A stretch of 64,000 bases of DNA from a virus (taxonomy: Duplodnaviria; Caudoviricetes): IMG/VR virus record IMGVR_UViG_3300047160_005625, positions 6,562-70,561 of that record, one strand, 5' to 3'. Both the position numbers and the translations under genes were made by a program. The first letter of the stretch is position 1. Each line of letters opens with the position of its first letter. Shown here in pieces: positions 25,362 to 64,000 of this stretch. The notes below the pieces were generated by a model. That model made no database searches, had not been told where the DNA came from, and saw only the letters and a program-made list of their open reading frames with translations.

Positions 25362-25932
25362 TGTCGTCCTAGTCCTACTGGCGCTAGCAACTTATGCCCA
25401 GACGGGCGGGACGCCGGTAACGTTGAACGGCTATCCTCAGTCGCAGCCGACTCGCTTCCTCGATTACGACGCCAACGGGAACCTCGCCTATATCTGCTAC
25501 ACCACGCCATCGGGGATTGCTGCCTACTACAATTACTCTCGCTCCGTGATGGGCGGCACGCTCACGTCTATCGTGGTGGCCACGAATGTAGGCACGGTCA
25601 CGACCGTGGGCGCTCATGGCCTGATGGTCGGCCAGGGAGTGACCGTCTCGGGGGCCACGCTGGGCGCTTTGAACGCCACCTATATCATCGCGACTGTACC
25701 GTCCACTACCACTTTCACCATTACCACGACGGGCGTGGCGGATGGGACTTACAATAACGTCGCGCTTACCATATCAGGGAGTGCGCCGCTCCTGACTTCG
25801 CCTATCTGGTCAATAAATAAGCTCACATACTCTGCTGGAAATTCCCTGATCGGTTCGCAATGGGCCTTGGGCGCTGCCGGAAATTATACGAGCATTTGCG
25901 CGAATCGTGCCACGATTAACACCTACAAATAA
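25342..25932 (+). CDS. Secreted beta-rich protein with E1-FCCH-like domain (196 aa)
   Basis: Signal peptide MSAIKSSVVLVLLALATYA|Q; TVTTVGAHGLMVGQGVTVSGAT...LNATYIIATVPSTTTFT. Confidence 0.65.
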   Translation: MSAIKSSVVLVLLALATYAQTGGTPVTLNGYPQSQPTRFLDYDANGNLAYICYTTPSGIAAYYNYSRSVMGGTLTSIVVATNVGTVTTVGAHGLMVGQGVTVSGATLGALNATYIIATVPSTTTFTITTTGVADGTYNNVALTISGSAPLLTSPIWSINKLTYSAGNSLIGSQWALGAAGNYTSICANRATINTYK

Positions 25933-28900
25933 TCCTCCAGGATTCGTAATATCCCAAGAGGAGGCGGGCCGCTTATCGCAGGATCAGTACGAGATCATCG
26001 GTGGCCAGTCCCGACCCTGGTGGCCGTGGCAAATACGGGGCCTGACCTGTCTGTGCGACGAAATCGCGTTGTTGGGCGGCAAGGGGGGGGGCAAATCGGA
26101 ATTGATGCGTGCGTGGTTGGTCAGCGGTAATCCTCATTTATCGGATCGCGACGAACGCGGTAATGATATTTCCTGGAATCGAACATATACCGAACACCCA
26201 TACTATCGCGGTTTGATCCTCAGGAAAAATGAGGGAGACTTGGCGGATTTTATCAAGCGTGCCGCCCGAATGTGGAAGTCGTTGGCTGGCGAGTATAAGA
26301 ACGGCAGGTTCGAGTTCCCCTCTGGGGCCGTGATCGATGTCGGTCACATGAAAGATCAGACCGCATGGATGAAGTACGTCGGAATCGAGTATGTACGAAT
26401 CGCTATCGATGAAGTGGGCCTAATCAAGGATTACAGCCTGTTTGAGGAGCTTCGCTCCACGATGCGTACCCCCTACCCGGAATTGCGATGCCAGATCATG
26501 GTAGCTTCCAACGCGGGTGGCCCAGGCACTTCGTGGCTCATTGAGAGGTACATGAAAGCCAGGGATACGGACGGAAACATCATTCCTCACGACAATGTGA
26601 TCACTGAGGAATATATGCATCCCTTTACTGGGGAAAAGAGGTTTCGCACCAGGATATGGATGTTCAGCACCATCCAAGATAATCCGATTTACACCAAATC
26701 CGATTACGCCATAACGTTGATGTCGCTCTCCGATCCAAAGCTGCGACGAGCCTATTTTGAGGGGCATTGGGATGCACTGTTCGGCTCCTATTTCTGCTTC
26801 AAGAAAGGGACTGAGATTTTGACCGATCAGGGATGGATGGACATCACATCTGTAGTAAAAGGGCAGCCAGTCGCTACGCTCAGTCCATCCATGGAGATGA
26901 GTTTCGAACCATGCACCATGACCAAATCTTTTCCCTTTCTCGGGGAGATGCGCGAGTTCAATGGTAAATCGTTGAGGTTTTCAGTTACGCCGAATCACCG
27001 TATGTATTCGCGCTTATCTGGGAAAAACGAATACGCCATGATTCCGGTGGATGATTTGCCTAGCTCCAGCGAATATCTACGGGCAGCGGCTATTTACAGA
27101 GGCACTTCGCCCGAAGAGATTATTATAAAGGACGATTCGATTCTTTCCAAATGGGTGAAGCTGGCGTGCATCGTATGTGGATCATTGTATTTAGCCAAGG
27201 CTCACCGACTGCGGCATCGGCGTAGAACCACCTGTTCGCGTCCCTGTTCTTATGTCGCCAGAGTAGCATATCGTGGCCACAAGTCAGAATTTGCCCCGAC
27301 AGTCGTGGGGCATATCGACAGCATAGATTGGCATCGGTTTGACCCTGGAGACTGGGCAGAATTACTCGGCTGGTACATAACAGAGGGCAGTATTGAGCGG
27401 AGAAAAGGAGTTGTAATAGGGTTCACAATTTCGCAGTATGAGGCTGTCAATCGAGCAAAGTGTCAGCGGATCGCAACACTACTGAGACGCATGGGTTTAT
27501 CGTTCACCCGAGACGATATGCGGTTTAGAGTGCATTCCACGGCCCTCGGGAAAGTCCTGGCTCACCTTGGAACTAGCAGATCCAAGTACATTCCGAGGGA
27601 AGTGGTCAATTACAAAAAGGACCATTTAGAACGGTTATTCGAAGCCCTGATGCTGGGGGATGGATGCCCGAGCACCAATTGCCAGGGAGCATATGAGTAT
27701 TTTACTGTTTCCAAGCGATTGGCCGATGACATTCAGGAATTATGCGCTCGTCTTGGCAGGATATGTTTTATCGGAAGGAGGCCATCAAAGAACCCTAAGC
27801 ATGCGGATGGTTATTACTTGCATATTCGGAGGCCAGGGAAGCTAACATCGCACGTCAGGAAGACGGATATAGTGAGTGTTCCTTATGAGGGTCTGGTCGC
27901 CTGCGTAACTGTGGAACCGTATCATACGGTGTTGGTCAGATACGAAGGCTCTGCGATGTGGTGCGGAAACAGTGACCTATTCCGGCCAGATGGGCCGATT
28001 AAGGTCAATAATGAACCGCCCAACGCCAATCATGTCCTAAAGCCCATGCTCGCCGGGACGGAGAAGCGCTACCCGATAGAGATCAAACCTTGGCACCACA
28101 TTACGATGGGCGGCGATTGGGGCTATGCGCATGAGGCCGCGTTTCTATGGGCGCGGCAATTGCCGGATAAGCGCGTCGTGATTTACCGCGAGTTCGTGGC
28201 GGACCACACATCTCCGGTGCGGCTGGGTTTCGAGATCGCGCAGAAGTCGCTCAAGGAACTTGAAGGGCTGCCATCGCACTCGTTTACGTTGTGGCTCAGC
28301 CATGACGCCTTTCGCAACGACCGAGGGGAGCGATCCACGGCGGAACTGATCGCGGCGGGGATCTCCAAGGTGCTTGGCCCCAAGGCAGTCCATCTGCCGG
28401 ATCTGATGATTCGAAATTTGCGCGAATCCTTCGCGATGGAATCTTTCAACCGCTATACCGCAGAGCAACAGCAGGAGGCCATCGATCAGATATTGCTCCA
28501 GCGGCGCACTGGGATCACGATTCGGATTGCCGAGAAGACCGGCGTGATCGGCTGGCAGCATTGCCGCGAGCTAATGCAGTGGGAGTCGTTCGGAGAGCCG
28601 AATACGCAACGCGACCCAGAGTTCGCGCGGAAGCTCCTCCATGAGAATCCCAAGGCGTTTGAGGCTTACGTGGAGTCATTCCGGGATATTCCGGTCGAGG
28701 TCCGTCCGCGCTTGCAGATTTACGATTGCTGCCCCAGGCTAATTACCGCCATTCCTCGGGCGCTCCATGAAGACGGCACAGAAAACGTCGATAAGGCGCA
28801 TTTCATCGGCAAGGATTTAATCGACGCCTTTTCCTACTTAGTGAGTGGACTCATGGACGAGGCTCCGGCTGAGCCATTCGAGGCGTTCCGCGAGCGGCGG

Positions 28901-29116
28901 CTTGAAGAGAGTTCCCGGTATTACGGCAGCGATCTCACGACCAACGATCTCTGCCGGATTCACGAGTCCATCGAAGGCGAGTGGAAGGACATGCAACAGG
29001 ACTTCTCTCCGGTGACGCCGCCGCGCATGGCTCGCCTCGGTCGCCTGATGCGCCAGGGCAAGATCCGACCGGAGCAGAATATCGACCGCATTTTGGGAAT
29101 CGAACATTATGGCTAG
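25907..29116 (+). CDS. terL: Terminase large subunit containing an intein
   Basis: Walker A GGKGGGKS, Walker B IAIDE, ASNAGGPG coupling motif, RNase H-like nuclease GGDWGY...D...DLIDAFSY. Confidence 0.9.
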   Translation: MPRLTPTNNPPGFVISQEEAGRLSQDQYEIIGGQSRPWWPWQIRGLTCLCDEIALLGGKGGGKSELMRAWLVSGNPHLSDRDERGNDISWNRTYTEHPYYRGLILRKNEGDLADFIKRAARMWKSLAGEYKNGRFEFPSGAVIDVGHMKDQTAWMKYVGIEYVRIAIDEVGLIKDYSLFEELRSTMRTPYPELRCQIMVASNAGGPGTSWLIERYMKARDTDGNIIPHDNVITEEYMHPFTGEKRFRTRIWMFSTIQDNPIYTKSDYAITLMSLSDPKLRRAYFEGHWDALFGSYFCFKKGTEILTDQGWMDITSVVKGQPVATLSPSMEMSFEPCTMTKSFPFLGEMREFNGKSLRFSVTPNHRMYSRLSGKNEYAMIPVDDLPSSSEYLRAAAIYRGTSPEEIIIKDDSILSKWVKLACIVCGSLYLAKAHRLRHRRRTTCSRPCSYVARVAYRGHKSEFAPTVVGHIDSIDWHRFDPGDWAELLGWYITEGSIERRKGVVIGFTISQYEAVNRAKCQRIATLLRRMGLSFTRDDMRFRVHSTALGKVLAHLGTSRSKYIPREVVNYKKDHLERLFEALMLGDGCPSTNCQGAYEYFTVSKRLADDIQELCARLGRICFIGRRPSKNPKHADGYYLHIRRPGKLTSHVRKTDIVSVPYEGLVACVTVEPYHTVLVRYEGSAMWCGNSDLFRPDGPIKVNNEPPNANHVLKPMLAGTEKRYPIEIKPWHHITMGGDWGYAHEAAFLWARQLPDKRVVIYREFVADHTSPVRLGFEIAQKSLKELEGLPSHSFTLWLSHDAFRNDRGERSTAELIAAGISKVLGPKAVHLPDLMIRNLRESFAMESFNRYTAEQQQEAIDQILLQRRTGITIRIAEKTGVIGWQHCRELMQWESFGEPNTQRDPEFARKLLHENPKAFEAYVESFRDIPVEVRPRLQIYDCCPRLITAIPRALHEDGTENVDKAHFIGKDLIDAFSYLVSGLMDEAPAEPFEAFRERRLEESSRYYGSDLTTNDLCRIHESIEGEWKDMQQDFSPVTPPRMARLGRLMRQGKIRPEQNIDRILGIEHYG
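26795..27970 (+). mobile_element. Intein (392 aa) with LAGLIDADG homing endonuclease
   Basis: Starts CFKKGTEILT, block B VTPNHRM, LAGLIDADG blocks LLGWYITEG and ALMLGDG, ends WCGN|S. Exteins rejoin as WDALFGSYF|SDLF. Confidence 0.92.
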
Positions 29117-37729: not shown

Positions 37730-40312
37730 ATGTTCGAGATCATCCTTTTTCTCATCGGTTTCTTTGCGCAGCAAGCGGTGTTTCCTTCGACGCCGTTCAG
37801 CAACGTCGGCGCGTTGCCGAGTTCAGTCACCAGCTTTTCCTTGAACGTGGGCGCAATGCCAACGACTTACTCGACACTCGGGGCGACGATCACGTATACC
37901 TACACGATTACGAATACTGGGACTACGACGGTCGGCCCGTTCACGATCAACGACAGTAAGTTTGGCATGTTTAGCTGCGGAAGTTCGGTTGGACCCGGCT
38001 TGCCGACTTCCTGCACGAAGCCGTATTCCATCGTCCAAGCAGATCTCGATGGCGGTTCGATCACGATCACATCATCGCAGGCGAGCTACATGGGCTTCAC
38101 ATCCAATATACCGCCTCCGCTCACCGTTACCGCAAACCAAATGCCATCGATCAGCCTGAGCATCGGCACCGTGCCCACAACGTTTAATATGTCGGGGCAG
38201 AACATCGCTATCACTTACACAGTGACCAACACGGGCAACGTCACGCTCACGATGACGGTCACTGTCTCGGACCCCAAGCTCAGCCCGGTAACATGCGGGA
38301 CGGGCTCGATGGCCCCCATGGGAACAAAGACCTGCACGGGCAGTTATTTGATATCTTCCACGGATATGACGGCTGGCTCGGTCACCAGCAACCCGGTGAC
38401 GGCGACTACGACTTTCACCGGAAGCGTTACCGCCACAAGTATGTGGACGATCAATTGTCCCACCTGCGGGGGGCCTACCATCAATCTCAGTGCATATTTC
38501 ACGACGGGCCAGTCCTGCGACGGCGTGAGCGACACTACCTCCGCTTTCAATAGGGCGTTCGCGGATGCGCCCAACCATTACAATTCCAGCACCGGGCTGC
38601 CCGTGATATTGCAGCTTCCCATGGGCACATGCGCGGTCTGGGGAACGAGCTTTACCACCTCCGTAGGCATCTGCGCTATGCTCGCTATGCCCAGCAATCT
38701 CAGCATTCAGGGCATGGGCATTAACAGCACCTTTCTCAAGATTATTCATTACCCTCCTTCCAGCGCCGGGTGTGGCAACCCGTTCCCTCTCATAAACTAC
38801 AATTACTATCAACGCTCCAACTACCACAACACCACTCCCTATAACACTCTGGGCGCCACGGCAGGCTCCAATACCGTTCAGATGCAGACTCCGAGCGACA
38901 CTTCTCACTTTGCTGTGGGGGACTACGTGATTCTTTATGAGCGAGAGCCTAACTGGCCGCAGATTCCTGCGCAATGCGCTAACCCGAGCAGCACCACCTG
39001 CTTCGCCCCCAAACCACCGCAATTCGGCGGTCCCAGCGCCAACCTTCAAGAATGCGACGTTTGCCCCAGCCAGCAGAACAAAATCACTGCAATTAACCCC
39101 GCTGGCTTCCCTAACGGAACGATTCAGTTTGTGCACCCCTGGGATCGCACGTACTCCCAGTACTCCTATCCTAATACGGGGGGATCAAATTTTATCAGCC
39201 CGCCTTCCACCTGGAACTTAACCCCTACGCTGGGGAATGTTTCTTACACCACCGTGAGCAACGGAGGCGTGCAAAATCTCACCCTGGACGCAGCGCAGCC
39301 GTTTAACATGAATGAAGTTTCTGATCTGACGTTCAAAAACATCAACATGGTCGTGGAGCAATTGATTCCTTCGGACGACGCCTCCCGTACTTACAACTTG
39401 AATATGCAATCAAATGGCGTATTTTACACTCTCTGGGATAACGTGAACTGGTCGATGGTCATCCACGGCTCCGCTAACGGCTTAGTCGGGGGCGAGTGGT
39501 GGCAGGACAATTCCTCTAACAATACCTGGCAGAACTCGACCTGGGGCGCGAGCGCAAGCAATGGCATTGGACAGTTCAGCTACGGAGAGTATGCCCATGA
39601 AAATTTTATCAACAACACGTTTTATCTCTTTGCACAATCGAACGGGTCGTTAGGGTTTGGGGGCCTGAACAGTAAATTCGACTTAAACACCGTGAATCAG
39701 GTCGGCGGAACCGTGAACTCAGCGAACACGGGGTTGTACTCGGATGGCCTTTCTGTAGGCTGCGTGTATCAATGCATTCAAAGCAACTACATGATCTATG
39801 AAAACGGCGCTCCGCAGTCCACTTCGACCTCCAACAACACGTTCAATAACTGTGCGACATCTTCCGGCGCTGCCTGTCTGATGTTGTTCGGGGGAGCGCA
39901 ACTCGTTCAGACCAATCACGTGACGGCCACCTCGGGCCCGGCCATTACTTACTTTGGAGACCCGAATGCGACCTATTGGGTGATCGACAATAATACACTC
40001 AGCGTGGCGAGTGGGTCTACGGTTTCCTTGTCGATTTCGAGTAACAACAACTGGAAATTCACTAACAACATGGGCAACGGACACGGAGCCTCTTTCTTCA
40101 ATCCGACCGGAGGAACCTGCACCGTGACCGGCAATATGGGCTTTGGAAGCTATAGTTTTCAGAACAGCGGCGTATGCACCTTTAACACAAACACGCGAAA
40201 CCTGATTCCTTTCCTGCGTGACCGTTTTATTCTGGCGATTGTTATTGCGCTCGGCGCGGGCGGGCTTGGCGTCTGCCGCTATCGGCGCCAGAGAAAGCCG
40301 GAAGTCGGCTGA
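37730..40312 (+). CDS. Secreted surface protein: two DUF11/Ig-like domains, pectin-lyase-like beta-helix, C-terminal TM anchor
   Basis: Hydrophobic N-terminus; TITYTYTITNTG and IAITYTVTNTGNVTL (DUF11-like); CDGVSDTTSAFNRA...LQLP.G (beta-helix start); tail IPFLRDRFILAIVIALGAGGLGVCRYRRQRK. Confidence 0.75.
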   Translation: MFEIILFLIGFFAQQAVFPSTPFSNVGALPSSVTSFSLNVGAMPTTYSTLGATITYTYTITNTGTTTVGPFTINDSKFGMFSCGSSVGPGLPTSCTKPYSIVQADLDGGSITITSSQASYMGFTSNIPPPLTVTANQMPSISLSIGTVPTTFNMSGQNIAITYTVTNTGNVTLTMTVTVSDPKLSPVTCGTGSMAPMGTKTCTGSYLISSTDMTAGSVTSNPVTATTTFTGSVTATSMWTINCPTCGGPTINLSAYFTTGQSCDGVSDTTSAFNRAFADAPNHYNSSTGLPVILQLPMGTCAVWGTSFTTSVGICAMLAMPSNLSIQGMGINSTFLKIIHYPPSSAGCGNPFPLINYNYYQRSNYHNTTPYNTLGATAGSNTVQMQTPSDTSHFAVGDYVILYEREPNWPQIPAQCANPSSTTCFAPKPPQFGGPSANLQECDVCPSQQNKITAINPAGFPNGTIQFVHPWDRTYSQYSYPNTGGSNFISPPSTWNLTPTLGNVSYTTVSNGGVQNLTLDAAQPFNMNEVSDLTFKNINMVVEQLIPSDDASRTYNLNMQSNGVFYTLWDNVNWSMVIHGSANGLVGGEWWQDNSSNNTWQNSTWGASASNGIGQFSYGEYAHENFINNTFYLFAQSNGSLGFGGLNSKFDLNTVNQVGGTVNSANTGLYSDGLSVGCVYQCIQSNYMIYENGAPQSTSTSNNTFNNCATSSGAACLMLFGGAQLVQTNHVTATSGPAITYFGDPNATYWVIDNNTLSVASGSTVSLSISSNNNWKFTNNMGNGHGASFFNPTGGTCTVTGNMGFGSYSFQNSGVCTFNTNTRNLIPFLRDRFILAIVIALGAGGLGVCRYRRQRKPEVG

Positions 40313-41298
40313 CCGGGGACGATGCAATTCCCAGTCACCCATCCGCTATCGTTGATCGACGTAGCGATCACGTTCGCGCACGGCCCTAAGTCGATCATGG
40401 TGGGCGTCCCGTCATAGTACACGTTCTCAATGACGGCAACGCCCAATTTATTGATACGCGCTGCAACGGGCGCTTTTTTAGGAAAAGGGGGATCATCGAC
40501 GTGGTTCGGAAGCGGGAATAACTTTATGGAGCCGGTGCGCAGTTGTACATAACCCTGCGACGGAGTCGGGGGAAGGAATGGGTTATTCGCATACCCCACT
40601 ACCGTTCCCGCATTGTTGATGCTTATCCCGGCATGATCGGCGATGCCCACTGGTCCTGTAAACGTAACCGTCCCGTTCGCAGCCCGCAGGAAGCTATTTA
40701 AGAAGTCGTTCCCAAATCGAATGACGGCTCCCGTCATCTCTCCCAGATCATTGATATCCGTGGCCAAGGCCCCCTTCGCGTTGGACGTGAGCGCGTCGAG
40801 TTGGGCGAAACTGCCATCGGCGTTACGCAAAAACGCTTGGGGGGCCAAGCTCTCTACCACGCCCACAATCTGGCCACCGGAGTTGATGGCGGCGGGAATG
40901 GTTTCATACCCACCGGGCGCCGTGCTGGTAGCAGAGAATTTGGTCACCACGCCGGAACGGGACCGCACGAATCCTTGCCGACATCCCCCTGGCGGCGGCG
41001 TAATCGGGGGCGGGCAGGTAGTGTAATAGTAGCCCGTGATCGCGCCCTGGCTATTGATGCCAGTGGGAATCAATCCCTCTGGCAACCGGGTAAATGAACC
41101 CAGCCTGATGGTGTCCCCATCACTAATAGTCGTAACTATAAAACCCCGGCCGCCGCAAACTCCGAGGACGACGCCGTTACTGTTTAAGCCGATTGAGAAA
41201 GTGCCGACGCAGGCCGGGGCCTGGAAAGTGATGAAGTGCGCTCCGAACAGTTGCGATCCGAAGAGCAACGCGATTGCAAATTTCATGGGTTCCTCCAA
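40279..41298 (-). CDS. Secreted HAF-like repeat protein (moron)
   Basis: Signal peptide MKFAIALLFGSQLFGA; repeats of (G/A)INxxG.(I/V)(T/V)G. Confidence 0.7.
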   Translation of the reverse strand: MEEPMKFAIALLFGSQLFGAHFITFQAPACVGTFSIGLNSNGVVLGVCGGRGFIVTTISDGDTIRLGSFTRLPEGLIPTGINSQGAITGYYYTTCPPPITPPPGGCRQGFVRSRSGVVTKFSATSTAPGGYETIPAAINSGGQIVGVVESLAPQAFLRNADGSFAQLDALTSNAKGALATDINDLGEMTGAVIRFGNDFLNSFLRAANGTVTFTGPVGIADHAGISINNAGTVVGYANNPFLPPTPSQGYVQLRTGSIKLFPLPNHVDDPPFPKKAPVAARINKLGVAVIENVYYDGTPTMIDLGPCANVIATSINDSGWVTGNCIVPGQPTSGFLWRR

Positions 41299-41385
41299 CT
41301 AATCATTTTAGGCCGCCGTCAAGGCGGGCGCATTATTGTGCCACGAACGCCGTCCTGCGTCAACCCTCGGGGGGTTGCTTTAAAT

Positions 41386-42411
41386 TTAAGTCTCTTCCTC
41401 AGGAATCATGGCGCCGAGGAACCCAACGAAGACCCCGCCGATAAAGTGCGGCGTCGCCAACTGCGCGACCCGCTGGTAACTCCCGTCCGCTTTGCGCATC
41501 CGGTAGGAAAACGAGTACGGCCGTTTTCGGGCGTAGTTGACCCCGTTGCGCGATTCCTCTGCCCAATCCTCTGGATGATAGCATCGTTTCCAGGCATCCC
41601 CCTCGAAGTCCTTCCGCCGCATCCCGGTGAACTCCAGCATCGTTTGGTTGACATGCAGGCATTGGCGTTGGGCGCTGGCGATCCAATGCATGAAGGGCGA
41701 GGCGTTCGTGAGATCTCCCAAACTTCTGAGAATGTCCCTTTCCTGAGGGGTGGCCAGGACGACCTTATTATCCGGTTTCTGGCGTAACCATTCGAGCGCT
41801 TCCGGCTGCGTGGAAAAGGTTTGAACGTCGAAGCCGCGCTCGCGCATTACGCGCCCGGTGATTCCCCTCGTCAAGAGCACTGCGGCTATTTTGGGCCGGT
41901 AGTTGTGCTCCTCCAGCCAGTCCGCCATGATCGTCCCCAAGTCAGCGCGATCTTGCGAGGAAAGGTCCAGATCCACCGCGAGGAAATTGATGAGCACCTT
42001 GCTCGCGCCTCGTTTCAGGGCCTCGGCATAGACCTGCATCATCACCGGCGCCGCTGTCATCGCGTTGAGCGATCCCCACATCATCGCCAGCAGAATTTCG
42101 TCATCCAAGGCCGTGAAATCGCAAAAGCTGGAATGCCAGTGATCTTCGGCGAGGGGCAAAAAACGGTCGATTTCGCGGGCGAGGGTCAGGTAGGAGATGT
42201 TGTGATAGTCGGCGATTTTCACCTGCGTGCTCAGGTGGGGGTCATGCTCGCCGCGCTCCATTCTTCTGATGTGCGCCCGATTCATTCCTTTCGCGACGAG
42301 TGAGGCGAGCGACAAGCCGGTTCGGTCCCGTAAACTGCGCAACGCCCTCGCCCAGGCGATTTGAATATCCGCATCTTTCACCCCACACCTCGTATTTTCT
42401 GTAGCTAGCAA
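41386..42411 (-). CDS. XRE-HTH regulator fused to STAS/SpoIIAA-like and PAS domains (candidate repressor)
   Basis: N: LRSLRDRTGLSLASL..KGMNRAHIRRMERGEHDPHLST (XRE). Middle: KVLIN...DL...KIAAV...F.T..EALEWL (SpoIIAA-like). C: SP..HWIA...C.HVNQ...EFTG...W...HPED...YRMRKADGSY (PAS_3). Confidence 0.8.
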   Translation of the reverse strand: MLATENTRCGVKDADIQIAWARALRSLRDRTGLSLASLVAKGMNRAHIRRMERGEHDPHLSTQVKIADYHNISYLTLAREIDRFLPLAEDHWHSSFCDFTALDDEILLAMMWGSLNAMTAAPVMMQVYAEALKRGASKVLINFLAVDLDLSSQDRADLGTIMADWLEEHNYRPKIAAVLLTRGITGRVMRERGFDVQTFSTQPEALEWLRQKPDNKVVLATPQERDILRSLGDLTNASPFMHWIASAQRQCLHVNQTMLEFTGMRRKDFEGDAWKRCYHPEDWAEESRNGVNYARKRPYSFSYRMRKADGSYQRVAQLATPHFIGGVFVGFLGAMIPEEET

Positions 42412-42743
42412 GATCCTTTTTGGATCATCCGCGCTACCAATCTGCCTTGTTTATAACTTTGGGCGACATGCAGCAATATTTTTTCTGGATATTTTTCGCC
42501 TAAAATAAGCCGCACCCGTTCCCCGAGGGCTGCGACTGATCCTCAACGCAATCATTAACTTAGCCTATCCAAAATGTCTGCATTTCCACAATACGTCATT
42601 ATGAAGCATAAATCAAGCAGAAATCATTTAGTCATTATGCTTGACCTCGAAAATCTTCTCGCCTAAAATCAGTTAGTCCTCAGCCCGAAGACGGCAAATC
42701 GGGCGTGGGGGGCCGAATTTTTGCTTCATCCCGAGGGGAATGT
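42412..42743. promoter_or_regulatory. Divergent AT-rich control region (immunity-region-like)
   Basis: The only long non-coding gap between divergent regulators; contains TTGACC (42642) and TATAAC/TAAAAT hexamers. Confidence 0.55.
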
Positions 42744-43004
42744 ATGCTACGCAACACGCGAGAATTCGATCTCGAAGACCAAGCGACCGTCACTCTGAGA
42801 GTGACAGCCGAGTTCAAGAAGCGGCTCCAGTTGTATTGCGATAAGCGATCCCAGGAATTAGCCTCCTATTGCTCGTTTGGCCGCGCTGTGCAAGATCTGC
42901 TGGCGCCGGTCCTGGCTAATATCCAACTAAGCGCCATCGGCGCGGTGAACGGCGCGACTAGAAAGCGCACCAAGCGAAAACAGCAACAAACCGTCGCCGC
43001 CTAA
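42744..43004 (+). CDS. Cro-like/ribbon-helix-helix DNA-binding protein
   Basis: ATVTLRVTAEFKKRLQLYC is RHH-like; first gene of the early operon; GAGGGG RBS. Confidence 0.55.
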   Translation: MLRNTREFDLEDQATVTLRVTAEFKKRLQLYCDKRSQELASYCSFGRAVQDLLAPVLANIQLSAIGAVNGATRKRTKRKQQQTVAA

Positions 43005-43030
43005 TTTTCCCCGGCGAGGCCAAAATCCCC

Positions 43031-43225
43031 ATGAACACCCACGCTCGAAGTGCGCCTAAAGACGCGCCGGCTAAAGAATGGCCGGTCGCCTGCGACCGCT
43101 GCCGCGCCCGTCGCCGCCTCGATTTCCTCAGGGGCTGGCGCCTTTGCCAACGTTGCCGCGACCGCCAACTCGCCGAGCTTGAAAGGGAGATCGATCCCCA
43201 CTGGCCGCCGAGAAAGCGCCTATGA
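43031..43225 (+). CDS. Small Zn-ribbon protein
   Basis: CDRC...CQRC. Confidence 0.5.
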   Translation: MNTHARSAPKDAPAKEWPVACDRCRARRRLDFLRGWRLCQRCRDRQLAELEREIDPHWPPRKRL

Positions 43226-43515
43226 GCTATATCATCCGTTTCGAGAGCCTCGCCGGCGTCGATGGCGGCGGCGCGCATGACGCGATTGGAAATTACCTGC
43301 GCAACTATGATCCCACTCCCCTTGCTGGTCGCCCCTATGACGGTGGTCTGCTCAAGACCACTAGATTTCGGCATCTGGCGCAGCTTTTCGAAAGCCCCCG
43401 CGAGGCCATCGAATGCTGGCGAACGCAGGCGCCCCCGCCCCATGATTTGCGGCCTGATGGCAAACCGAACCGGCCCTTGACCCCGTTTTCCGTCTCGATC
43501 CTGGAGGAAAAGTGA
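43222..43515 (+). CDS. Hypothetical protein (97 aa)
   Basis: ATGA and GTGA overlaps on both sides. Confidence 0.6.
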
Positions 43516-44546
43516 GCGAGTTCACAGCCGAACAGATCGACCTCATCAAGCGCCAGATCGCGCCTCCCGGCACGACCGACGACGAACTGCGATTGTTCTT
43601 AGCCTACTGTTACCGCACGGGTTTAGACCCATTCGCGAGGCAGATTTATTTGGCCGAACGCCGCAGCTTCGATCCAGACGTAAATCGGTGGGTTCTGAAG
43701 CGCCAACCTGAGACGACTATCGATGGATTTAGGTTAATCAGCGAACGCACTGGGCATTATGCCGGACAGGATGGTCCGTACTGGTGTGGCGTCGATGGCG
43801 ACTGGCGCGACGTCTGGACATCGGAGGAGCCGCCCGTCGCCGCGAAGGTCGGGATTCTGCGAAACGACTTCAAGCAGCCGCTTTATGCCGTAGCGCTCTA
43901 CCGGGAGTATTGCCAGAAGAAGAAAGACGGGCAGCCCAACAGCATGTGGCAGAAGATGCCCGCAGGTCAACTGGCGAAATGTGCGGAATCCCTCGCGCAT
44001 CGGCGCGCTTTCCCGAGAGAATTCAGCGGCCTCTACACCAATGAGGAGATGGCCCAAAGCTCGACGGAAGGCGTGAAAGAGTTGCAGGCCCAAGTAGCCG
44101 AAGAGAAGATCTCGGAGATCAAAATGCGCGCCGTTACGGCGGGGGAACAGCCGATCAGCCACATCGGCTTACAACACCTGCGCGAAACGAAAAAAGAGAT
44201 TGAGCAGTTCACTCGCTCCACCAATGATTATTACGAAGTTTTAAAAAAGTATGGCGTCGAGCACGCCAACCAGCTTGATCAGAAAAAAGGCCGAGAGGCT
44301 TACCGCGAATTGGCGGCGCTCGTGAATCGGCTCAAGGAAGAAACCGGCCTCCGGGATCTCTTAGAGGGACTGCGCGACAAGCTTGGCGTCCCCAAGTTTT
44401 ACGGCATTCTTGGGCGGGACTACGGGGTCGGGTCCTTCGAGGACGTGTTGGCGTTCGACGGCGAACGATTGCAGAACCTGCTCTCGCAATTGCAGGACGA
44501 GGTGAAGTTGACTGTGACGAGCGAGGATTTACATGGCGCCAGTTAG
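43512..44546 (+). CDS. bet: Phage recombination protein Bet (RecT family SSAP)
   Basis: [10 protein letters not shown]...TDDEL.LFL..C..TGLDPF.RQIY...TTIDGFR.I..RTG.YAG...W.KMP..QLAKCAE..A.R.AFP...GLYT.EEM. Confidence 0.9.
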
Positions 44547-46664: not shown

Positions 46665-46928
46665 ATGATCAAATTCACTTACGGCAAAGGCAAGAAAGTC
46701 AGTCTTGGACTAGGGATCGCCCGAGAAAATGTAAACAGACTAATTGCAGGCAAGCCAATTCTGGTCAGGTTGAGCGAAGTCGGCACTCCAATAGATGACG
46801 AAATTTTACTTTATTTTGGCGAAACGGAACAAGATCTGATGGATCAGGTCCGCGAATTCCTCACGCCGGAAACCAAGATGAGCATTGATCCACGATTGAA
46901 CATTAAGGGTTATGACAACGACCACTAG
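46665..46928 (+). CDS. Hypothetical protein (87 aa)
   Basis: ATG overlapping the stop of a 48-aa upstream ORF (46522..46668). Confidence 0.55.
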   Translation: MIKFTYGKGKKVSLGLGIARENVNRLIAGKPILVRLSEVGTPIDDEILLYFGETEQDLMDQVREFLTPETKMSIDPRLNIKGYDNDH

Positions 46929-48510
46929 GCAACACGCACGCTCCGAACTGCGCCCAGTTCTCCATCCGGCCATCTATGCGCGGGTTTCCAGCTATGACCA
47001 AGATTGCGCAATGCAGCTTCGCGAGGGCCGCGATTGGTTCGCCCGCATGGGATACCCGAAGCCCGAAGAATTCATCGACCACGCCGTGAGCGGCGCAAAG
47101 CGGAGCCGCCCCGACTTCGACCGGCTGATGAAACTGGCTGCGAACCCGGTCGATTTGATTTGGGTGTCGAAGATCGACCGCTTCGGGCGCTCTGTTCTCC
47201 ACTTCAGCGAATCCATTGGGAGGCTCGACAATCTGGGCGTTCGTTTCGTCGCGCCATCGCAGGGCATCGATACCGACAACTCAAGTCCCACGGGGCGTCT
47301 GCTCCTTAACTTGCTGGCGTCCATCGCCGAATTTGAGCGGCAATTGATGATTGAACGCTCGACTGCGGGACGTATGCGGAAATTCGCGGACGGCGAACCC
47401 GACTCCTGGAATCTGATCTTCGGCTTCGAACGCGGCAAGCCCATCCTCAACGAGAAACATGCCCAGATCATGCGCCAAATCTTCGATTGGCGCGACCAGG
47501 ATCTTAGCTTCTACGAAATCGAGCCTATGGTGCTGGCGTTCGCTAATAAGTTGGGTGTCAAACCGCCTCGTGGCAAAACGTGGTGGCCGCAATCTATACG
47601 GAAATGGGTCGCCAGCCGCCAATGCATCGGGGAGTTCCATCGCAAAATCGACGGCAAGGTGCGAATGTACCCGCTGCCGGTCCTGATCGATCCGGTGAAG
47701 TGGACCCGCGTGAACCAAAAGGGCCAGGACATCGGGCGGCGCAAACGCGGCAACCCTAAACACAAGTACCTGCTCACCGGGTTTCTCCGTAGCGAACACG
47801 ATAAGCCTATGAGCGGCTGTACGGATCGCGGCTATAGGTACTACCGCTGCGAAGGCGTGCAGCGGCGCTCGAAGATCACGGCTTCTGGCCAAATGATTCG
47901 CAAGGGGGACTTCGTCGGTTGTGGATGCCCATATCGCAGAGCGGATATGCTAGAGGGCGCCGTGTGGCCAGAAATCTGGCATTACCTGATGTACCCGGCC
48001 AGGGCATGGAGCTTGGCGCAGGCCCTCGTGGACGAGGAAAACATGGACAAGCCCAAGAGTGGACGGGACGTACAAGCCGAACTGGATAAAGCTAAGCACG
48101 AAATCGGCGTGATTCAGCGCAGCGTGTTGGCGAAGGATGGCGGATGGACAGAGGAAGAAGGCTTCCCAGCAATCAGGAAGCTCCGCGAACAAATCGTCAC
48201 GCTAGAAACGGAGAAACGTGCGTTGGCGAATGTTGTGGAGATCCCGCCGCTCAATGCCGTCGAGCAGGCGTTTGACAGGCTCACTAAGGGCGGCGAGCCG
48301 CGGTGGGAGCATCGCCGCGAGGTGCTCGACGGGCTGGCCGAATTACGGATGCGCTTGGAGGGGGACGAGGTGATTATCAGTGGGAAGGTGCCGCTAACTG
48401 ATGCAAACACAGATACTTCAAAGGGCGACAAACGGAGCGAAAGGCTTACCCCTGGCTCTATTTGTCATGACCATATCCCGTTTGTTCTCAAAGCAAGGAT
48501 TGCGGCATGA
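46912..48510 (+). CDS. Large serine recombinase (integrase)
   Basis: AIYARVSS..Q catalytic motif, SG...RP.F..LM, VSKIDRFGRS, recombinase domain, C-terminal Zn ribbon (YRYYRC) and coiled coil. Confidence 0.93.
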   Translation: MTTTTRQHARSELRPVLHPAIYARVSSYDQDCAMQLREGRDWFARMGYPKPEEFIDHAVSGAKRSRPDFDRLMKLAANPVDLIWVSKIDRFGRSVLHFSESIGRLDNLGVRFVAPSQGIDTDNSSPTGRLLLNLLASIAEFERQLMIERSTAGRMRKFADGEPDSWNLIFGFERGKPILNEKHAQIMRQIFDWRDQDLSFYEIEPMVLAFANKLGVKPPRGKTWWPQSIRKWVASRQCIGEFHRKIDGKVRMYPLPVLIDPVKWTRVNQKGQDIGRRKRGNPKHKYLLTGFLRSEHDKPMSGCTDRGYRYYRCEGVQRRSKITASGQMIRKGDFVGCGCPYRRADMLEGAVWPEIWHYLMYPARAWSLAQALVDEENMDKPKSGRDVQAELDKAKHEIGVIQRSVLAKDGGWTEEEGFPAIRKLREQIVTLETEKRALANVVEIPPLNAVEQAFDRLTKGGEPRWEHRREVLDGLAELRMRLEGDEVIISGKVPLTDANTDTSKGDKRSERLTPGSICHDHIPFVLKARIAA

Positions 48511-48523
48511 AGGTATTGAGTCG

Positions 48524-49258
48524 ATGATTCGCTATCACGGAGGTCCGATTACCCCAAACAAGGCGGCCATTGCGGCTTGGCGCGATGGCCACGCTTGTGT
48601 TTCGTTTGCTTGGCCTGATCAGATTCAAATCGCCTTCGAATACGCCGCAGACGTGCTCATCGACAATGGAGCCTTTAGTTTCTGGGGCACGGGGAAAACG
48701 CTTGATGTGGCCGCTTATGTTGAGTTCGTTGACTTCTGGCGACATCATCCGGCGTTCGGTTGGTGCCTTGTCCCAGATGTCATCGACGGCGACGAACGGG
48801 AAAATGACGCTCTTGTTGAGGAATGGCCGTTAAGCAAATTCATCAGTACGCCCGTTTGGCATATGCATGAATCGTTCGAACGCCTAAAACGGCTCATCGC
48901 AGAATGGCCGCGCGTAGCCATTGGCAGCTCAGGCGACTTTGCGGAAATCGGGACGAAGCAATGGGAGATCCGAATAGGACAGGCAATGGATATCTGTTGC
49001 GACGCCGAAGGCTACCCCCGGACGAAACTGCACGGCTTGCGGCAGATGGATAACGCCATCACTTCCTGTTTGCCTTATGCCAGCGTCGATTCTTGCAATA
49101 TCGCACGTAATATCGGCATTGACTCATCTTGGCGCGGGCCATATGCTCCCAAATCCAAAGATCTGCGGGCGATGGTGCTGCGGGACCGAATCGCAAGTCA
49201 TGCCAGTTGTTCGCGCTGGACAGGGTGTTGGGGTCGCAATTTGGAGTTGTTCGGATGA
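48524..49258 (+). CDS. Phage TIM-barrel protein, TGT/DpdA-like (DNA modification inferred)
   Basis: MIRYHGGPITP...VLIDNGAFSFW...VPDVIDG...PVWHMHES...LHGLR...SVDS.N resembles motifs of queuine-tRNA-ribosyltransferase-fold phage proteins. Confidence 0.5.
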   Translation: MIRYHGGPITPNKAAIAAWRDGHACVSFAWPDQIQIAFEYAADVLIDNGAFSFWGTGKTLDVAAYVEFVDFWRHHPAFGWCLVPDVIDGDERENDALVEEWPLSKFISTPVWHMHESFERLKRLIAEWPRVAIGSSGDFAEIGTKQWEIRIGQAMDICCDAEGYPRTKLHGLRQMDNAITSCLPYASVDSCNIARNIGIDSSWRGPYAPKSKDLRAMVLRDRIASHASCSRWTGCWGRNLELFG

Positions 49259-62263: not shown

Positions 62264-64000
62264 TCACGCGCTCGGTTTGGTTACGGACAGTAGCACGGTC
62301 CTAACGCCCGTTCCCGCCTCTTCGAACGTCTCGGGCGGCAGTTCTTCCCACGTTCCGCCGTACTGTGCCACTATCGGCCTGAGCTTATCTTGCTGCCGGG
62401 GACCGCCAGCGCAGATTGCCACTAGACGCCCGCCCGGTTTCAGCATGTGCAACGCATGCTCGATGTGGTCAATATCCTGCGCATGGACAAACGGCGGATT
62501 CATCAGAATCACGTCGAATGTCCCCAGGTTGCCGTTACAAGTCAGAAAATCAGCCTGTAAGACGTTGCGGCAAATCCCCTGCGCAGCATCGGCAGCGGGC
62601 GTAAAACGCTGGCTCAAAGATTCCGCCAACTTGCCGTTAACCTCGACCATGAACAAATCAGCGTTTGGGCGGGCGGCCTGAACCGCTCGGCAGATGGCCC
62701 CTGTACCGGCGCTCGGCTCTAACACCGTTTCGCCCGGTTGGATATCGGCCATATCCACCATGCGCGCGGCTAGATCGCGAGGCGTGGGGAACAACTGCGG
62801 TGCGCTCACAACGTGGATGCCCTGCTTTAGCGTGTCTTTGAGCGCGTCGAACTTGGTAGGCTCGGGCGGCGTGTAGGTTTTCGATTCAGGCGGCGTGACA
62901 AACTCGCTCTTCACCGCTGCCGGGGTTTCCGGCGCCGGAACCACCGGCGCCGCTGGGGGCTTCACCTCCTTTGCATCGGTGATAAATACCGGAATGCGCG
63001 CCCAGTCGCGACCGGACACGGAGCGCTGCCGGTAAGCAATCGCCGTTTCTCCTTGTGATGGCCGCCCATAGGTGTGGCGCCCATTGGCGTCAAAAGTCGC
63101 GGCGAAGCTGCTATCGCTCCATTTGGTTTTCTGTTTCCATTCGGCCATGGTCATCTCGACGCAATCGGGCGCGCGGAAATTCACGAGCGGCGGTTTTTGC
63201 ATCACCGCTTTCACCTTGGCGGCGTCCTCCGCGCTCGGCGGGCGGTAATCCTTGATTTCCTCGATGCCTGTAGGCCAAACGCCCAAATAGCGGCGGGTAA
63301 CGCTTACGCTTACGATTTTGCCAGCGCTCTTGTTGATTTTGAGCACCGGCGACCACTCGTTGCCGATCAAAACGCGCCCGCCCACCTCGATCTGGAATCG
63401 ATCCGCAGCCAATCCGCCCGATTCGGCGAGCATGGCGCGCTCATATTCGAGTCGGTTTTCATAGTGGCGAATCCAGCGTTCACAATGCGCGATCCAGCGG
63501 GGATAGGTGGCCTGTGCAACCGGGAAAACTTCGTCTAACGCCCGGGGTGCGTACAGATTCGGATAGGAATTATTCAAAGCGCTGTACACGTCCGGGCATT
63601 GGTCGAAATCCGGTTTATCGCCTTCCTTGCGCGGCAGCCGGAGATGACACATCCCTGCGAGCCGCAGCGCAACGCCCTTTTGCAATTCTTTGTCTGGTTC
63701 GTTTTCGCAGTCCGTCCAAAGTTTCAGCCACATTTCGGCCTCTTGCTTGTATTTGTCTTGCTTGCGCCTATCCGCTTCGAGTCCCTTGATGCGCCGGGCG
63801 CGCACGTCGGGCCGTTCCTTGTACTTCGCGGCAGCAATCGCGCCCGCCGCGCGAGATTTCCAATACTTCGAGGTTTCCCACATCTGAACGGCCTTTCGCA
63901 TTCCGTTTTCGATTCGCTCCGCGTCCTTCCGCGCGTGGCGCTCGCTGTGATGGCCTACTAGAATCGGCTGCCCTAGCGGGATTCCGTCCGTAATGCGTTT
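62264..64000 (-). CDS. DUF3560-domain protein fused to an N6-adenine-type SAM methyltransferase (5' partial)
   Basis: The frame is open to the window edge: GIPLGQPILVGHHSERHARKDAERI (DUF3560); QLFPTP, VLEPSAGTG (motif I), ILMNPPF (motif IV). Confidence 0.85.
   Translation of the reverse strand, partial: KRITDGIPLGQPILVGHHSERHARKDAERIENGMRKAVQMWETSKYWKSRAAGAIAAAKYKERPDVRARRIKGLEADRRKQDKYKQEAEMWLKLWTDCENEPDKELQKGVALRLAGMCHLRLPRKEGDKPDFDQCPDVYSALNNSYPNLYAPRALDEVFPVAQATYPRWIAHCERWIRHYENRLEYERAMLAESGGLAADRFQIEVGGRVLIGNEWSPVLKINKSAGKIVSVSVTRRYLGVWPTGIEEIKDYRPPSAEDAAKVKAVMQKPPLVNFRAPDCVEMTMAEWKQKTKWSDSSFAATFDANGRHTYGRPSQGETAIAYRQRSVSGRDWARIPVFITDAKEVKPPAAPVVPAPETPAAVKSEFVTPPESKTYTPPEPTKFDALKDTLKQGIHVVSAPQLFPTPRDLAARMVDMADIQPGETVLEPSAGTGAICRAVQAARPNADLFMVEVNGKLAESLSQRFTPAADAAQGICRNVLQADFLTCNGNLGTFDVILMNPPFVHAQDIDHIEHALHMLKPGGRLVAICAGGPRQQDKLRPIVAQYGGTWEELPPETFEEAGTGVRTVLLSVTKPSA

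What the first reader, a model, noticed from the sequence alone, without database searches (positions are those of the whole stretch)
41386..42743. Repressor-position XRE protein fused to STAS-like and PAS sensory domains
Seen: the only regulator divergent from the early operon is XRE-HTH, then a SpoIIAA/STAS-like domain, then a PAS_3-like domain. It has no S24 autoprotease motif. Established: lambdoid CI uses a RecA-stimulated S24 domain, PAS domains bind small ligands or cofactors, and STAS domains act in partner switching. Inference: the lysis-lysogeny decision may respond to a metabolite, redox or host partner-switching signal instead of SOS.
Basis: partly seen in the sequence, partly recalled or inferred. 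Interest (0 to 1): 0.75.

Follow-up and report, generated by a model that had tools for sequence, protein, structure and literature searches.

The report
Phage repressor-position HTH–STAS–PAS protein
A temperate-phage contig carries, where the lysogeny repressor normally sits, a very rare DNA-binding protein fused to two signal-type domains (STAS-like and PAS) instead of the usual self-cleaving domain, so its lysis-lysogeny switch may respond to something other than DNA damage, though this is untested.

Summary
ORF 41386-42411(-), more likely starting at GTG 42381 (331 aa), encodes three domains:
- an XRE helix-turn-helix (aa 13-82);
- a STAS/SpoIIAA-like domain (aa 91-211; AF2 pLDDT 91; RsbS Z 10.3);
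- a PAS_3 domain (aa 222-337; Pfam E 9e-11; Foldseek E 2e-7).

It is the only XRE-HTH hit in the 70.5-kb IMG/VR virus record. That record has no S24, ImmA, Ant or Bro hit and no RsbW- or PP2C-type partner. The gene diverges from a rightward operon encoding RecT and a large serine recombinase.

Relatives are very rare, and they are modular:
- one other three-domain protein;
- about 8 HTH+STAS proteins;
- about 10 HTH+PAS proteins.

In all five other contigs with DNA (one nearly a duplicate of another), the two-domain forms also diverge from runs of small genes. Two of these runs are followed by a serine recombinase.

Candidate operators (TSAAGCADAA, four copies) cluster around the only sigma-70-like rightward promoter.

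The repressor role rests on position and synteny alone. Signal sensing through PAS or STAS is inference. A conserved D-x-S/T lies at the STAS phospho-site position, and a Cys is present in 7 of 8 PAS domains. The two domains could simply be oligomerisation modules. The record is about 83% complete, so another regulator cannot be excluded. I class it as a new variant of a known kind.

The parts
41386..42381 (-). Gene for the XRE-HTH / STAS-like / PAS protein. It is 331 aa from GTG 42381; the longest ORF runs to TTG 42411, giving 341 aa. Residue numbers in this report use the 341-aa frame.
   Evidence: GAGG lies 6 nt before the GTG.
42166..42375 (-). XRE-type helix-turn-helix domain, aa 13-82, five helices.
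   Evidence: Pfam HTH_31 and HTH_3. A family profile hits PDB C.BclI at E 4.8e-11. AF2 helices 13-31, 35-40, 45-52, 60-69 and 74-82.
41779..42141 (-). STAS/SpoIIAA-like domain, aa 91-211. It has the family-conserved D149-x-S151 at the N-cap of helix alpha2.
   Evidence: AF2 pLDDT 91.3. Foldseek and VIA matches to RsbS, SpoIIAA and STAS. PF11964 hits in 2 of 10 relatives. Motif table.
41401..41748 (-). PAS N-cap helix (aa 222-237) plus the PAS_3 core (aa 241-337). Cys251 is conserved in 7 of 8 family members.
   Evidence: Pfam PAS_3 E 9.3e-11. Foldseek 8px4 E 2e-7, TMt 0.78. 10,412 HMMER hits, nearly all to this part. Alignment.
42382..42743 (.). 362-bp AT-rich divergent intergenic region, the presumed operator/promoter region.
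   Evidence: No Rfam match.
42641..42669 (+). Sigma-70-like promoter candidate for the rightward operon: TTGACC, 17 nt, TAAAAT.
   Evidence: 10 of 12 matches. A consensus match only.
42602..42644 (.). Three copies of the candidate operator half-site TSAAGCADAA: 42602-42611 (+), 42613-42622 (+) and 42635-42644 (-). The last two form an inverted repeat 12 bp apart whose right arm overlaps the -35 hexamer.
   Evidence: (I5). Unbiased shuffle test: 2 of 150 shuffles reach 3 copies.
42719..42728 (-). Fourth copy of the candidate half-site, just upstream of the first rightward gene.
42744..43004 (+). First gene of the rightward operon (86 aa from ATG 42744, GAGGGGA 4 nt upstream). It sits in the Cro position; its function is unknown.
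   Evidence: No Pfam, PHROG or PDB match.
43512..44546 (+). RecT-like single-strand annealing protein in the rightward early operon.
   Evidence: PHROG 2780 E 2e-70 and Pfam RecT E 3e-27.
46912..48510 (+). Large serine recombinase (integrase) in the same rightward operon. It marks the phage as temperate.
   Evidence: PHROG 95 E 5e-65; Pfam Resolvase, Recombinase and Zn_ribbon_recom.
40279..41298 (-). 339-aa gene immediately downstream of the regulator on the same strand. Its N-terminus looks like a signal peptide. It may be a lysogeny-expressed accessory gene.
   Evidence: No Pfam hit. Promoter-like site at 41363-41335 on the minus strand.

Best explanation
This is most likely the immunity-type (CI-analogous) repressor of a temperate phage, built as a one-component regulator.

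Proposed mechanism:
- The N-terminal XRE helix-turn-helix binds repeated TSAAGCADAA-like sites. These lie around the rightward promoter in the 362-bp intergenic region, and binding shuts off the early operon (Cro-position gene, RecT, serine recombinase and others).
- The STAS-like and PAS domains replace the S24 self-cleaving domain of lambda-type repressors. They provide dimerisation or oligomerisation.
- They probably also serve as the input through which repression is relieved. The input could be a ligand or redox change sensed by PAS (Cys251 is nearly invariant). It could also be phosphorylation or partner binding at the STAS D-x-S site. RecA-stimulated cleavage is not involved.

What is shown: the three folds, the lack of S24, the position, the synteny in relatives, and the clustered repeats.

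What is inferred: DNA binding at these sites, the repressor role, and any sensing.
For: - Domains.
- It is the only XRE-HTH in the whole 70.5-kb virus record. The record has no S24 (47), ImmA/M78 (72), Phage_CI_repr (85), ANT (86) or Bro-N (87).
- PHROG hits are to transcriptional-repressor families (phrog_3 E 1e-5).
- The gene diverges from an operon with RecT and a large serine recombinase.
- The same position recurs in relatives. HTH+PAS relatives in L003 and L006/L007, and HTH+STAS relatives in L002 and L013, all diverge from runs of small genes. In L003 and L006 a serine recombinase follows.
- The three-domain fusion is conserved in an independent sample: P0002, 59% identity.
- The HTH is 25-48% identical across all three architectures, and the PAS is 36-41% identical to that of the HTH+PAS family.
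- Four of the six window-wide TSAAGCADAA matches lie within 127 bp around the promoter, against 0.72 expected in the whole window. The unbiased test gives about 2 of 150.
- D/E-x-S/T is conserved in all ten STAS-like domains, at the N-cap of alpha2.
Against: - There is no experimental or direct computational evidence of DNA binding or repression.
- The operator motif was defined post hoc, and the unbiased test is only modest.
- No leftward (PRM-like) promoter was found.
- The record is linear and about 83% complete, so another regulator could be missing. Most neighbouring genes have no recognisable family, so an unrecognised repressor or antirepressor could be present.
- No cofactor-binding signature was identified in the PAS domain.
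- No kinase or phosphatase partner for the STAS domain is on the record.
- HTH+STAS and HTH+PAS both exist alone. This fits plain dimerisation domains as well as it fits sensors.
- The host is unknown.
Confidence: 0.45

Rival explanations
1. It is the maintenance repressor, but STAS-like and PAS act only as oligomerisation scaffolds, like the C-terminal domains of TP901-1 CI or 186 CI. Induction, if any, comes from an unrecognised antirepressor or another route. No ligand or phospho-signal is read by the protein itself.
For: - HTH+STAS (about 200 aa) and HTH+PAS (about 220 aa) each exist as complete proteins in the same genomic position. Either domain alone therefore suffices for the C-terminal role, and dimerisation is the simplest such role.
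- The PAS N-cap helix (aa 222-237) is conserved. From general knowledge of PAS domains, such helices commonly form dimer interfaces.
- No cofactor motif or partner enzyme was found.
Against: - Carrying two different dimerisation modules in one protein is redundant.
- The D/E-x-S/T at the STAS phospho-site position and the Cys in 7 of 8 PAS domains are conserved beyond what packing alone requires, although the Ser/Thr could be a helix cap.
- No antirepressor family was found.
Confidence: 0.28
2. It is not the lysogeny-maintenance repressor. It is an accessory sensor-regulator, comparable in role to VqmA of phage VP882. It activates or tunes the early operon or the downstream 339-aa gene in response to a signal. 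The true repressor is either unrecognised or lies in the missing part of the genome.
For: - The record is about 83% complete.
- Most small genes are unannotatable.
- XRE regulators can be activators.
- The known phage PAS regulator VqmA-Phage is an activator of an antirepressor gene (PMC8284805).
Against: - It is the only XRE-HTH in 70.5 kb.
- The divergent position next to the early operon recurs in all five other contigs with DNA, two of them near-duplicates.
- The candidate sites overlap the -35 region of the rightward promoter, which suggests repression.
Confidence: 0.17
3. The middle domain is a cryptic Ser/Lys self-processing protease domain that stands in functionally for S24.
For: - K138 is invariant and S151 is conserved (Thr in P0156) across the family.
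- VIA-align also lists S41 Ser/Lys proteases (Prc, CtpB, CtpA) at Z 8.4-8.7.
Against: - STAS proteins match better and over their full length (RsbS Z 10.3, 110 of 116 residues). The protease matches cover only part of much larger chains.
- PF11964 sequence hits occur in relatives.
- One member has Thr in place of the Ser.
- There is no Ala-Gly-type site in the HTH-STAS linker (sequence).
- K138 and S151 lie at opposite ends of the beta3 segment in the model.
Confidence: 0.03

Closest known systems
Lambda CI / LexA-type phage repressors (XRE or LexA HTH + S24 peptidase)
   Same: N-terminal HTH DNA-binding domain. The gene diverges from the early lytic operon across an operator/promoter region. 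The C-terminal part is presumably responsible for oligomerisation and for the inducing input.
   Different: There is no S24 domain in the protein or the record, and no Ala-Gly linker site. The C-terminal part is STAS-like plus PAS.
MmyB/MltR family (Xre-type HTH + PAS-related ligand-binding domain; PDB 3pxp, PMC3406030)
   Same: The same domain order for a one-component regulator: N-terminal Xre HTH and C-terminal PAS-type module. MltR binds a fatty acid and forms dimers.
   Different: No hit to the MltR ligand-binding family at E up to 10. Here the PAS is a classical PAS_3. A STAS-like domain is inserted between the HTH and the PAS. The context is phage, not actinomycete secondary metabolism.
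VqmA-Phage of vibriophage VP882 (PMC8284805)
   Same: A phage-encoded PAS-containing transcription factor that links the lysis-lysogeny decision to a small-molecule signal.
   Different: From general knowledge, VqmA has an N-terminal PAS and a C-terminal LuxR-type HTH. It activates qtip and does not occupy the repressor position. VP882 additionally has a cI repressor.
STAS / SpoIIAA-like proteins (SpoIIAA, RsbV, RsbS; PF11964 proteins 2ook and 2q3l, PMC2954212)
   Same: The fold. A conserved acidic-x-Ser/Thr lies at the N-terminus of helix alpha2, where SpoIIAA-type proteins are phosphorylated (general knowledge). PF11964 hits occur in relatives.
   Different: It is fused to a DNA-binding domain. 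No anti-sigma kinase or PP2C phosphatase is nearby. The query itself falls below every Pfam STAS model.
Uncharacterised XRE-HTH+PAS proteins (about 220 aa: P0027, P0162 and others) and XRE-HTH+STAS proteins (about 200 aa: P0155, P0154 and others) from metagenomes
   Same: Homologous HTH (25-48% identity), homologous PAS (36-41%) or STAS (25-60%), and the same divergent position next to runs of small genes.
   Different: They carry one C-terminal domain, not both. Only the window protein and P0002 combine them.

Membership tests
XRE/Cro-CI helix-turn-helix (PF01381, PF13560) | Sequence match to the HTH models and a five-helix fold | tested here: met
   HTH_31 scores 27.5 bits against a cut-off of 27, which is marginal; HTH_3 scores 18.9. 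The family profile hits C.BclI at E 4.8e-11. AF2 gives five helices at aa 13-82.
PAS (PF08447 PAS_3) | Sequence match above the curated threshold and a PAS fold | tested here: met
   42.3 bits against a cut-off of 25.6. TIGR00229 scores 26.2 against 22.9. Foldseek finds PAS and LOV structures at E 2e-7 and weaker, TMt up to 0.8.
STAS / SpoIIAA-like (PF01740 clan; PF11964) | STAS alpha/beta fold | tested here: met
   The domain model has pLDDT 91.3. RsbS Z 10.3 with rmsd 3.0 and 110 aligned; 4xs5 Z 10.0; SpoIIAA and RsfB by Foldseek at E 1e-5.
STAS / SpoIIAA-like (PF01740 clan; PF11964) | Sequence membership in a Pfam STAS-clan model | tested here: inconclusive
   The query domain gives no hit at E up to 10. 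Two of ten relatives hit PF11964, best E 4e-4.
Partner-switching anti-sigma antagonists (SpoIIAA/RsbV type) | Phosphorylatable Ser/Thr at the N-terminus of helix alpha2 | tested here: inconclusive
   D/E-x-S/T is conserved in all 10 family members at that topological position. No residue-level structural alignment to SpoIIAA was available, and the residue could be a plain helix cap.
Partner-switching anti-sigma antagonists (SpoIIAA/RsbV type) | Cognate RsbW/SpoIIAB-type kinase and PP2C phosphatase encoded nearby | tested here: not met
   No PF13581 or PF07228 match in the 70.5-kb record. Host-encoded partners cannot be tested because the host is unknown.
Lambda CI / LexA self-cleaving repressors | S24 peptidase domain with a Ser/Lys dyad and an Ala-Gly cleavage site | tested here: not met
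   No PF00717 hit in the protein or the record. There is no AG in the aa 83-95 linker.
MmyB/MltR-like regulators | MltR-type PAS-like ligand-binding domain after an Xre HTH | tested here: not met
   The Pfam scan at E up to 10 lists only generic PAS families. A STAS-like domain intervenes between the HTH and the PAS.
Temperate-phage immunity repressor (functional class) | Gene divergent from the early lytic operon in a phage that encodes an integrase | tested here: met
   Gene map, RecT and serine recombinase, and the same layout in L003 and L006.
Temperate-phage immunity repressor (functional class) | Binds operators and represses lytic promoters; confers immunity | not testable with these tools
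   Only candidate sites are available.

The most novel reading that the evidence does not exclude
A small, previously undescribed family of phage and mobile-element lysogeny repressors joins one conserved XRE DNA-binding head to interchangeable signal-input domains: STAS-like, PAS, or both in series. In the three-domain form, one polypeptide would gate prophage induction on two SOS-independent inputs. One input would be a small-molecule or thiol-redox cue read by PAS. The other would be phosphorylation or partner binding at the STAS D-x-S site by the host's partner-switching (general stress) machinery.
Probability: 0.2. Interest if true: 0.8.

Novelty: new variant of a known kind. Interest (0 to 1): 0.58.

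Why it matters
Most textbook prophage induction runs through RecA and an S24 domain, and how phages read other host states is an active question. VqmA-Phage is the only PAS-containing lysis-lysogeny regulator that my library searches returned.

A repressor that carries sensor-type domains directly would be a one-protein route from a host signal to induction. The either/or/both pattern (HTH+STAS, HTH+PAS, HTH+STAS+PAS) gives natural domain-swap controls for testing what each module does.

No paper in the library links a STAS domain to a temperate-phage repressor. The family is tiny and known only from metagenomes, so the practical impact depends on expressing it heterologously.

Tried and rejected
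Searches for relatives that found nothing:
- IMG/VR scans with the family alignments.
- A scan of 185,579 species genomes with the closest-family alignment.
- tblastn against 50,697 GenBank phages.

The surveyed contexts therefore come only from exact-protein look-ups. Two of those look-ups failed, and P0002's contig has no DNA available.

Sequence-only PDB searches with the middle domain and with P0156 gave only spurious repeat or TIM-barrel matches. The fold had to be established by structure.

Rfam found nothing in 41000-43600.

The Cro-position protein has a strand-then-helix pattern that looked like a ribbon-helix-helix to me, but Pfam, PHROGs and PDB gave no support. I do not claim it.

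Host inference from RecT relatives failed. The hits were Bacillota and Chloroflexota MAGs and actinobacteria at 37-54% identity, with no other shared genes.

Two direct repeats were considered as operators: TCGCCTAAAATMAG and AAATCAKTTAGTC. Neither is enriched beyond chance window-wide. The first contains the -10-like TAAAAT and may reflect promoter duplication.

A LOV-type or heme-type PAS was considered. LOV and heme PAS structures appear among many generic PAS matches, with no specific signal.

The Ser/Lys protease idea is kept only as a low-probability rival.
Full report
**What is there**

The finding covers ORF 41386..42411 on the minus strand (341 aa from TTG) plus the intergenic region up to 42743.

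The true start is more likely GTG 42381, giving 331 aa:
- GAGG lies 6 nt upstream of it.
- The database gene call P0001 is this 331-aa form.
- Homologues begin at this point.
- Residues 1-8 of the long form are disordered in the model.

Residue numbers below use the 341-aa frame.

**Domains**

*N-terminus.* Pfam places an XRE-type HTH at aa 21-71. HTH_31 scores 27.5 bits, just over its cut-off of 27. A profile of the N-terminal family hits the controller protein C.BclI at E 4.8e-11, along with many phage, antitoxin and SinR-type HTH structures.

*C-terminus.* Pfam places PAS_3 at aa 253-322 (42.3 bits against 25.6). NCBIfam sensory_box agrees.

*Full-length model.* An AlphaFold2 model built on a 16-sequence alignment has mean pLDDT 84.6. 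It shows:
- five helices at aa 13-82;
- an alpha/beta domain at aa 91-211;
- a helix at aa 222-237;
- a PAS core at aa 241-337.

Foldseek matches the PAS part to solved PAS and LOV domains (8px4 E 2e-7, TMt 0.78).

*Middle domain.* It has no Pfam hit of its own. Folded alone it reaches pLDDT 91.3 and pTM 0.86. The evidence that it is STAS/SpoIIAA-like:
- Foldseek's best matches are anti-sigma antagonists and RsbS (E 1e-5 to 5e-5).
- An independent all-against-all structural search puts RsbS first (Z 10.3, rmsd 3.0, 110 of 116 residues), followed by STAS 4xs5 (Z 10.0) and stressosome RsbR (Z 9.8).
- Two of ten family members hit Pfam PF11964 SpoIIAA-like (best E 4e-4).

**Context**

The assembly is a single 70,561-bp IMG/VR virus record. 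It is linear and about 83% complete by CheckV. I saw no host flanks.

The gene map:
- a + strand block of very divergent, presumably structural genes, with terminase-like and tape-measure-like hits;
- a two-gene minus-strand unit: this regulator and a 339-aa gene at 40279-41298;
- a + strand operon from 42744 with RecT (43512-44546), a large serine recombinase (46912-48510), a DpdA-like transglycosylase and an HNH endonuclease.

The serine recombinase marks the phage as temperate.

Six-frame family searches of the whole record gave:
- one HTH_3 match, which is this gene;
- no S24, M78/ImmA, Phage_CI_repr, ANT or Bro-N;
- no RsbW-type kinase or PP2C phosphatase.

**Relatives**

The full architecture is extremely rare. 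Among 5.8 billion protein clusters, only P0002 shares it (337 aa, 59% identity, from an independent ENA sample).

An exhaustive HMMER search gave 10,412 hits. Nearly all are to the PAS part alone, from large multi-PAS proteins. The same search also revealed two small families:

| Family | Size | Members |
|---|---|---|
| HTH+STAS | about 200 aa | P0004, P0014, P0146, P0152-P0155 |
| Stand-alone STAS-like | 127 aa | P0156 |
| HTH+PAS | about 220 aa | P0027, P0072, P0082, P0124, P0136, P0143, P0160-P0163 |

Identity to the window protein:

| Region | Compared with | Identity |
|---|---|---|
| HTH | HTH+STAS family | 39-48% |
| HTH | HTH+PAS family | 25-36% |
| PAS | HTH+PAS family | 36-41% |

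By comparison, most PAS hits from multi-PAS proteins are 25-33% identical. The window protein thus reads as one conserved DNA-binding head carrying both of two alternative C-terminal modules.

**Synteny**

Every relative for which DNA could be fetched sits divergent from a run of small genes.

| Protein | Type | Locus | Neighbours |
|---|---|---|---|
| P0027 | HTH+PAS | L003 (40-kb contig) | faces about 11 small genes, then an AcrVA2-like gene and a large serine recombinase |
| P0162 | HTH+PAS | L006 (42-kb contig), L007 | faces seven small genes, then a 532-aa serine recombinase, a methylase and a phage-type primase |
| P0155 | HTH+STAS | L002 | divergent from small genes |
| P0154 | HTH+STAS | L013 | divergent from small genes |

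L007 is a near-identical shorter copy of L006, so these are four independent contexts. These elements are only distantly related to the window phage: the recombinases are 23-26% identical. The shared position is therefore not just common descent of one phage. This is the main support for the repressor reading, and it remains positional evidence.

**Intergenic region**

The region 42382-42743 is AT-rich. It has no credible ORF and no Rfam match.

The only sigma-70-like site in the intergenic region is rightward: TTGACC, 17 nt, TAAAAT at 42641-42669.

A 13-mer, ATGAAGCATAAAT, recurs with at most 2 mismatches at 42612 (+) and 42717 (-). In an unbiased test, only 2 of 150 dinucleotide shuffles of the region contained any 13-mer with three such copies.

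The shared core TSAAGCADAA occurs six times in the window. Four of these lie at 42602, 42613, 42635 (-) and 42719 (-), against 0.72 expected window-wide. That pattern was derived post hoc, so the enrichment is inflated.

The copies at 42613-42622 and 42635-42644 form an inverted repeat separated by 12 bp. Its right arm overlaps the -35 hexamer (I5). These are reasonable operator candidates and nothing more.

**How it probably works**

I commit to this model: an immunity-type repressor that binds these sites as a dimer or higher oligomer and blocks the rightward promoter. The STAS-like and PAS domains replace S24 as the oligomerisation and input part.

Features compatible with input functions:
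- An acidic-x-Ser/Thr motif (D149-L-S151 here; E-L-T in P0156) is conserved in all ten STAS-like domains. It lies at the N-cap of helix alpha2. From established knowledge of SpoIIAA and RsbV, that is the topological place of the phosphorylated serine.
- Cys251, in PAS strand B-beta, is present in 7 of 8 members.

Neither feature proves sensing. The Ser may be a plain helix cap, and no cofactor motif or partner enzyme was found.

Each two-domain form exists alone in the same position. The most economical role for either C-terminal domain is therefore dimerisation, and this is the main rival.

My estimates are about 0.65 for the repressor role and about 0.4 for the protein itself reading a non-SOS signal.

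**Comparison with known systems**

- It works like a CI-type repressor but fails the defining S24 test.
- It shares domain order with MmyB/MltR regulators, which have an Xre HTH plus a PAS-like ligand-binding domain that binds a fatty acid (PMC3406030). It is not a member of that family.
- VqmA-Phage of VP882 is a phage PAS-containing regulator of the lysis decision (PMC8284805). From general knowledge it has the reverse domain order and a LuxR-type HTH, and it activates an antirepressor gene.
- PF11964 SpoIIAA-like proteins have been proposed to carry small non-polar ligands (PMC2954212).

Library searches found no paper that links a STAS domain to a temperate-phage repressor. They returned only VqmA-type work for PAS in phage lysis-lysogeny.

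The ESM Atlas lists uncharacterised HTH+PAS clusters in Bacillota and Pseudomonadota. BFVD holds 195-205-aa 'PAS domain' proteins from uncultured phages that align over about 200-225 columns. HTH+PAS as such is therefore not unique.

I did not test that note.

**Verdict**

This is a new variant of a known kind: a phage XRE repressor with unusual sensor-type C-terminal domains. The modular family pattern is interesting, but there is no functional evidence.

Caveats:
- the genome is incomplete;
- the host is unknown;
- the operator motif was defined post hoc.

Noticed in passing
window 40279-41298 (-): A 339-aa gene lies directly downstream of the regulator on the same strand. Its N-terminus looks like a signal peptide and it has Gly-rich repeats. 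It has no Pfam hit and its own promoter-like site at 41363-41335. It may be a lysogeny-expressed conversion or exclusion gene.
   Followed up: partly
window 46912-48510 (+); L003 2233-3900; L006 5546-7144: The large serine recombinase lies inside the rightward early operon, downstream of the small genes, and not next to the repressor. The same layout appears in two distantly related contigs that carry HTH+PAS regulators.
   Followed up: partly
window 25907-29116 (+): A 1069-aa ORF whose N-terminal 300 aa or so match terminase large subunit PHROGs. The rest is unassigned. It sits in the middle of the + strand block.
   Followed up: no
window 48401-49258 (+): A strong hit to the PHROG 887 queuine tRNA-ribosyltransferase family (E 4e-64). 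This suggests DpdA-like 7-deazaguanine DNA modification. The ORF overlaps the 3' end of the recombinase ORF.
   Followed up: no
L002 1829-3805; L003 4215-5300: AcrVA2-like (PF26125) genes sit in the operons beside the HTH+STAS and HTH+PAS regulators of related elements. This suggests anti-defence cargo under the control of these regulators.
   Followed up: no
window 42493-42509 and 42656-42672 (+): A 17-nt direct repeat, TTYTCGCCTAAAATMAG, occurs twice 163 bp apart. Each copy contains a -10-like TAAAAT, and the second copy is the -10 of the predicted rightward promoter. It may be a duplicated promoter element.
   Followed up: partly
window 62264-63901 (-): A DUF3560 + methyltransferase fusion protein lies at the right end of the record, in a leftward operon. 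No host-like genes were seen at either end of the contig.
   Followed up: no
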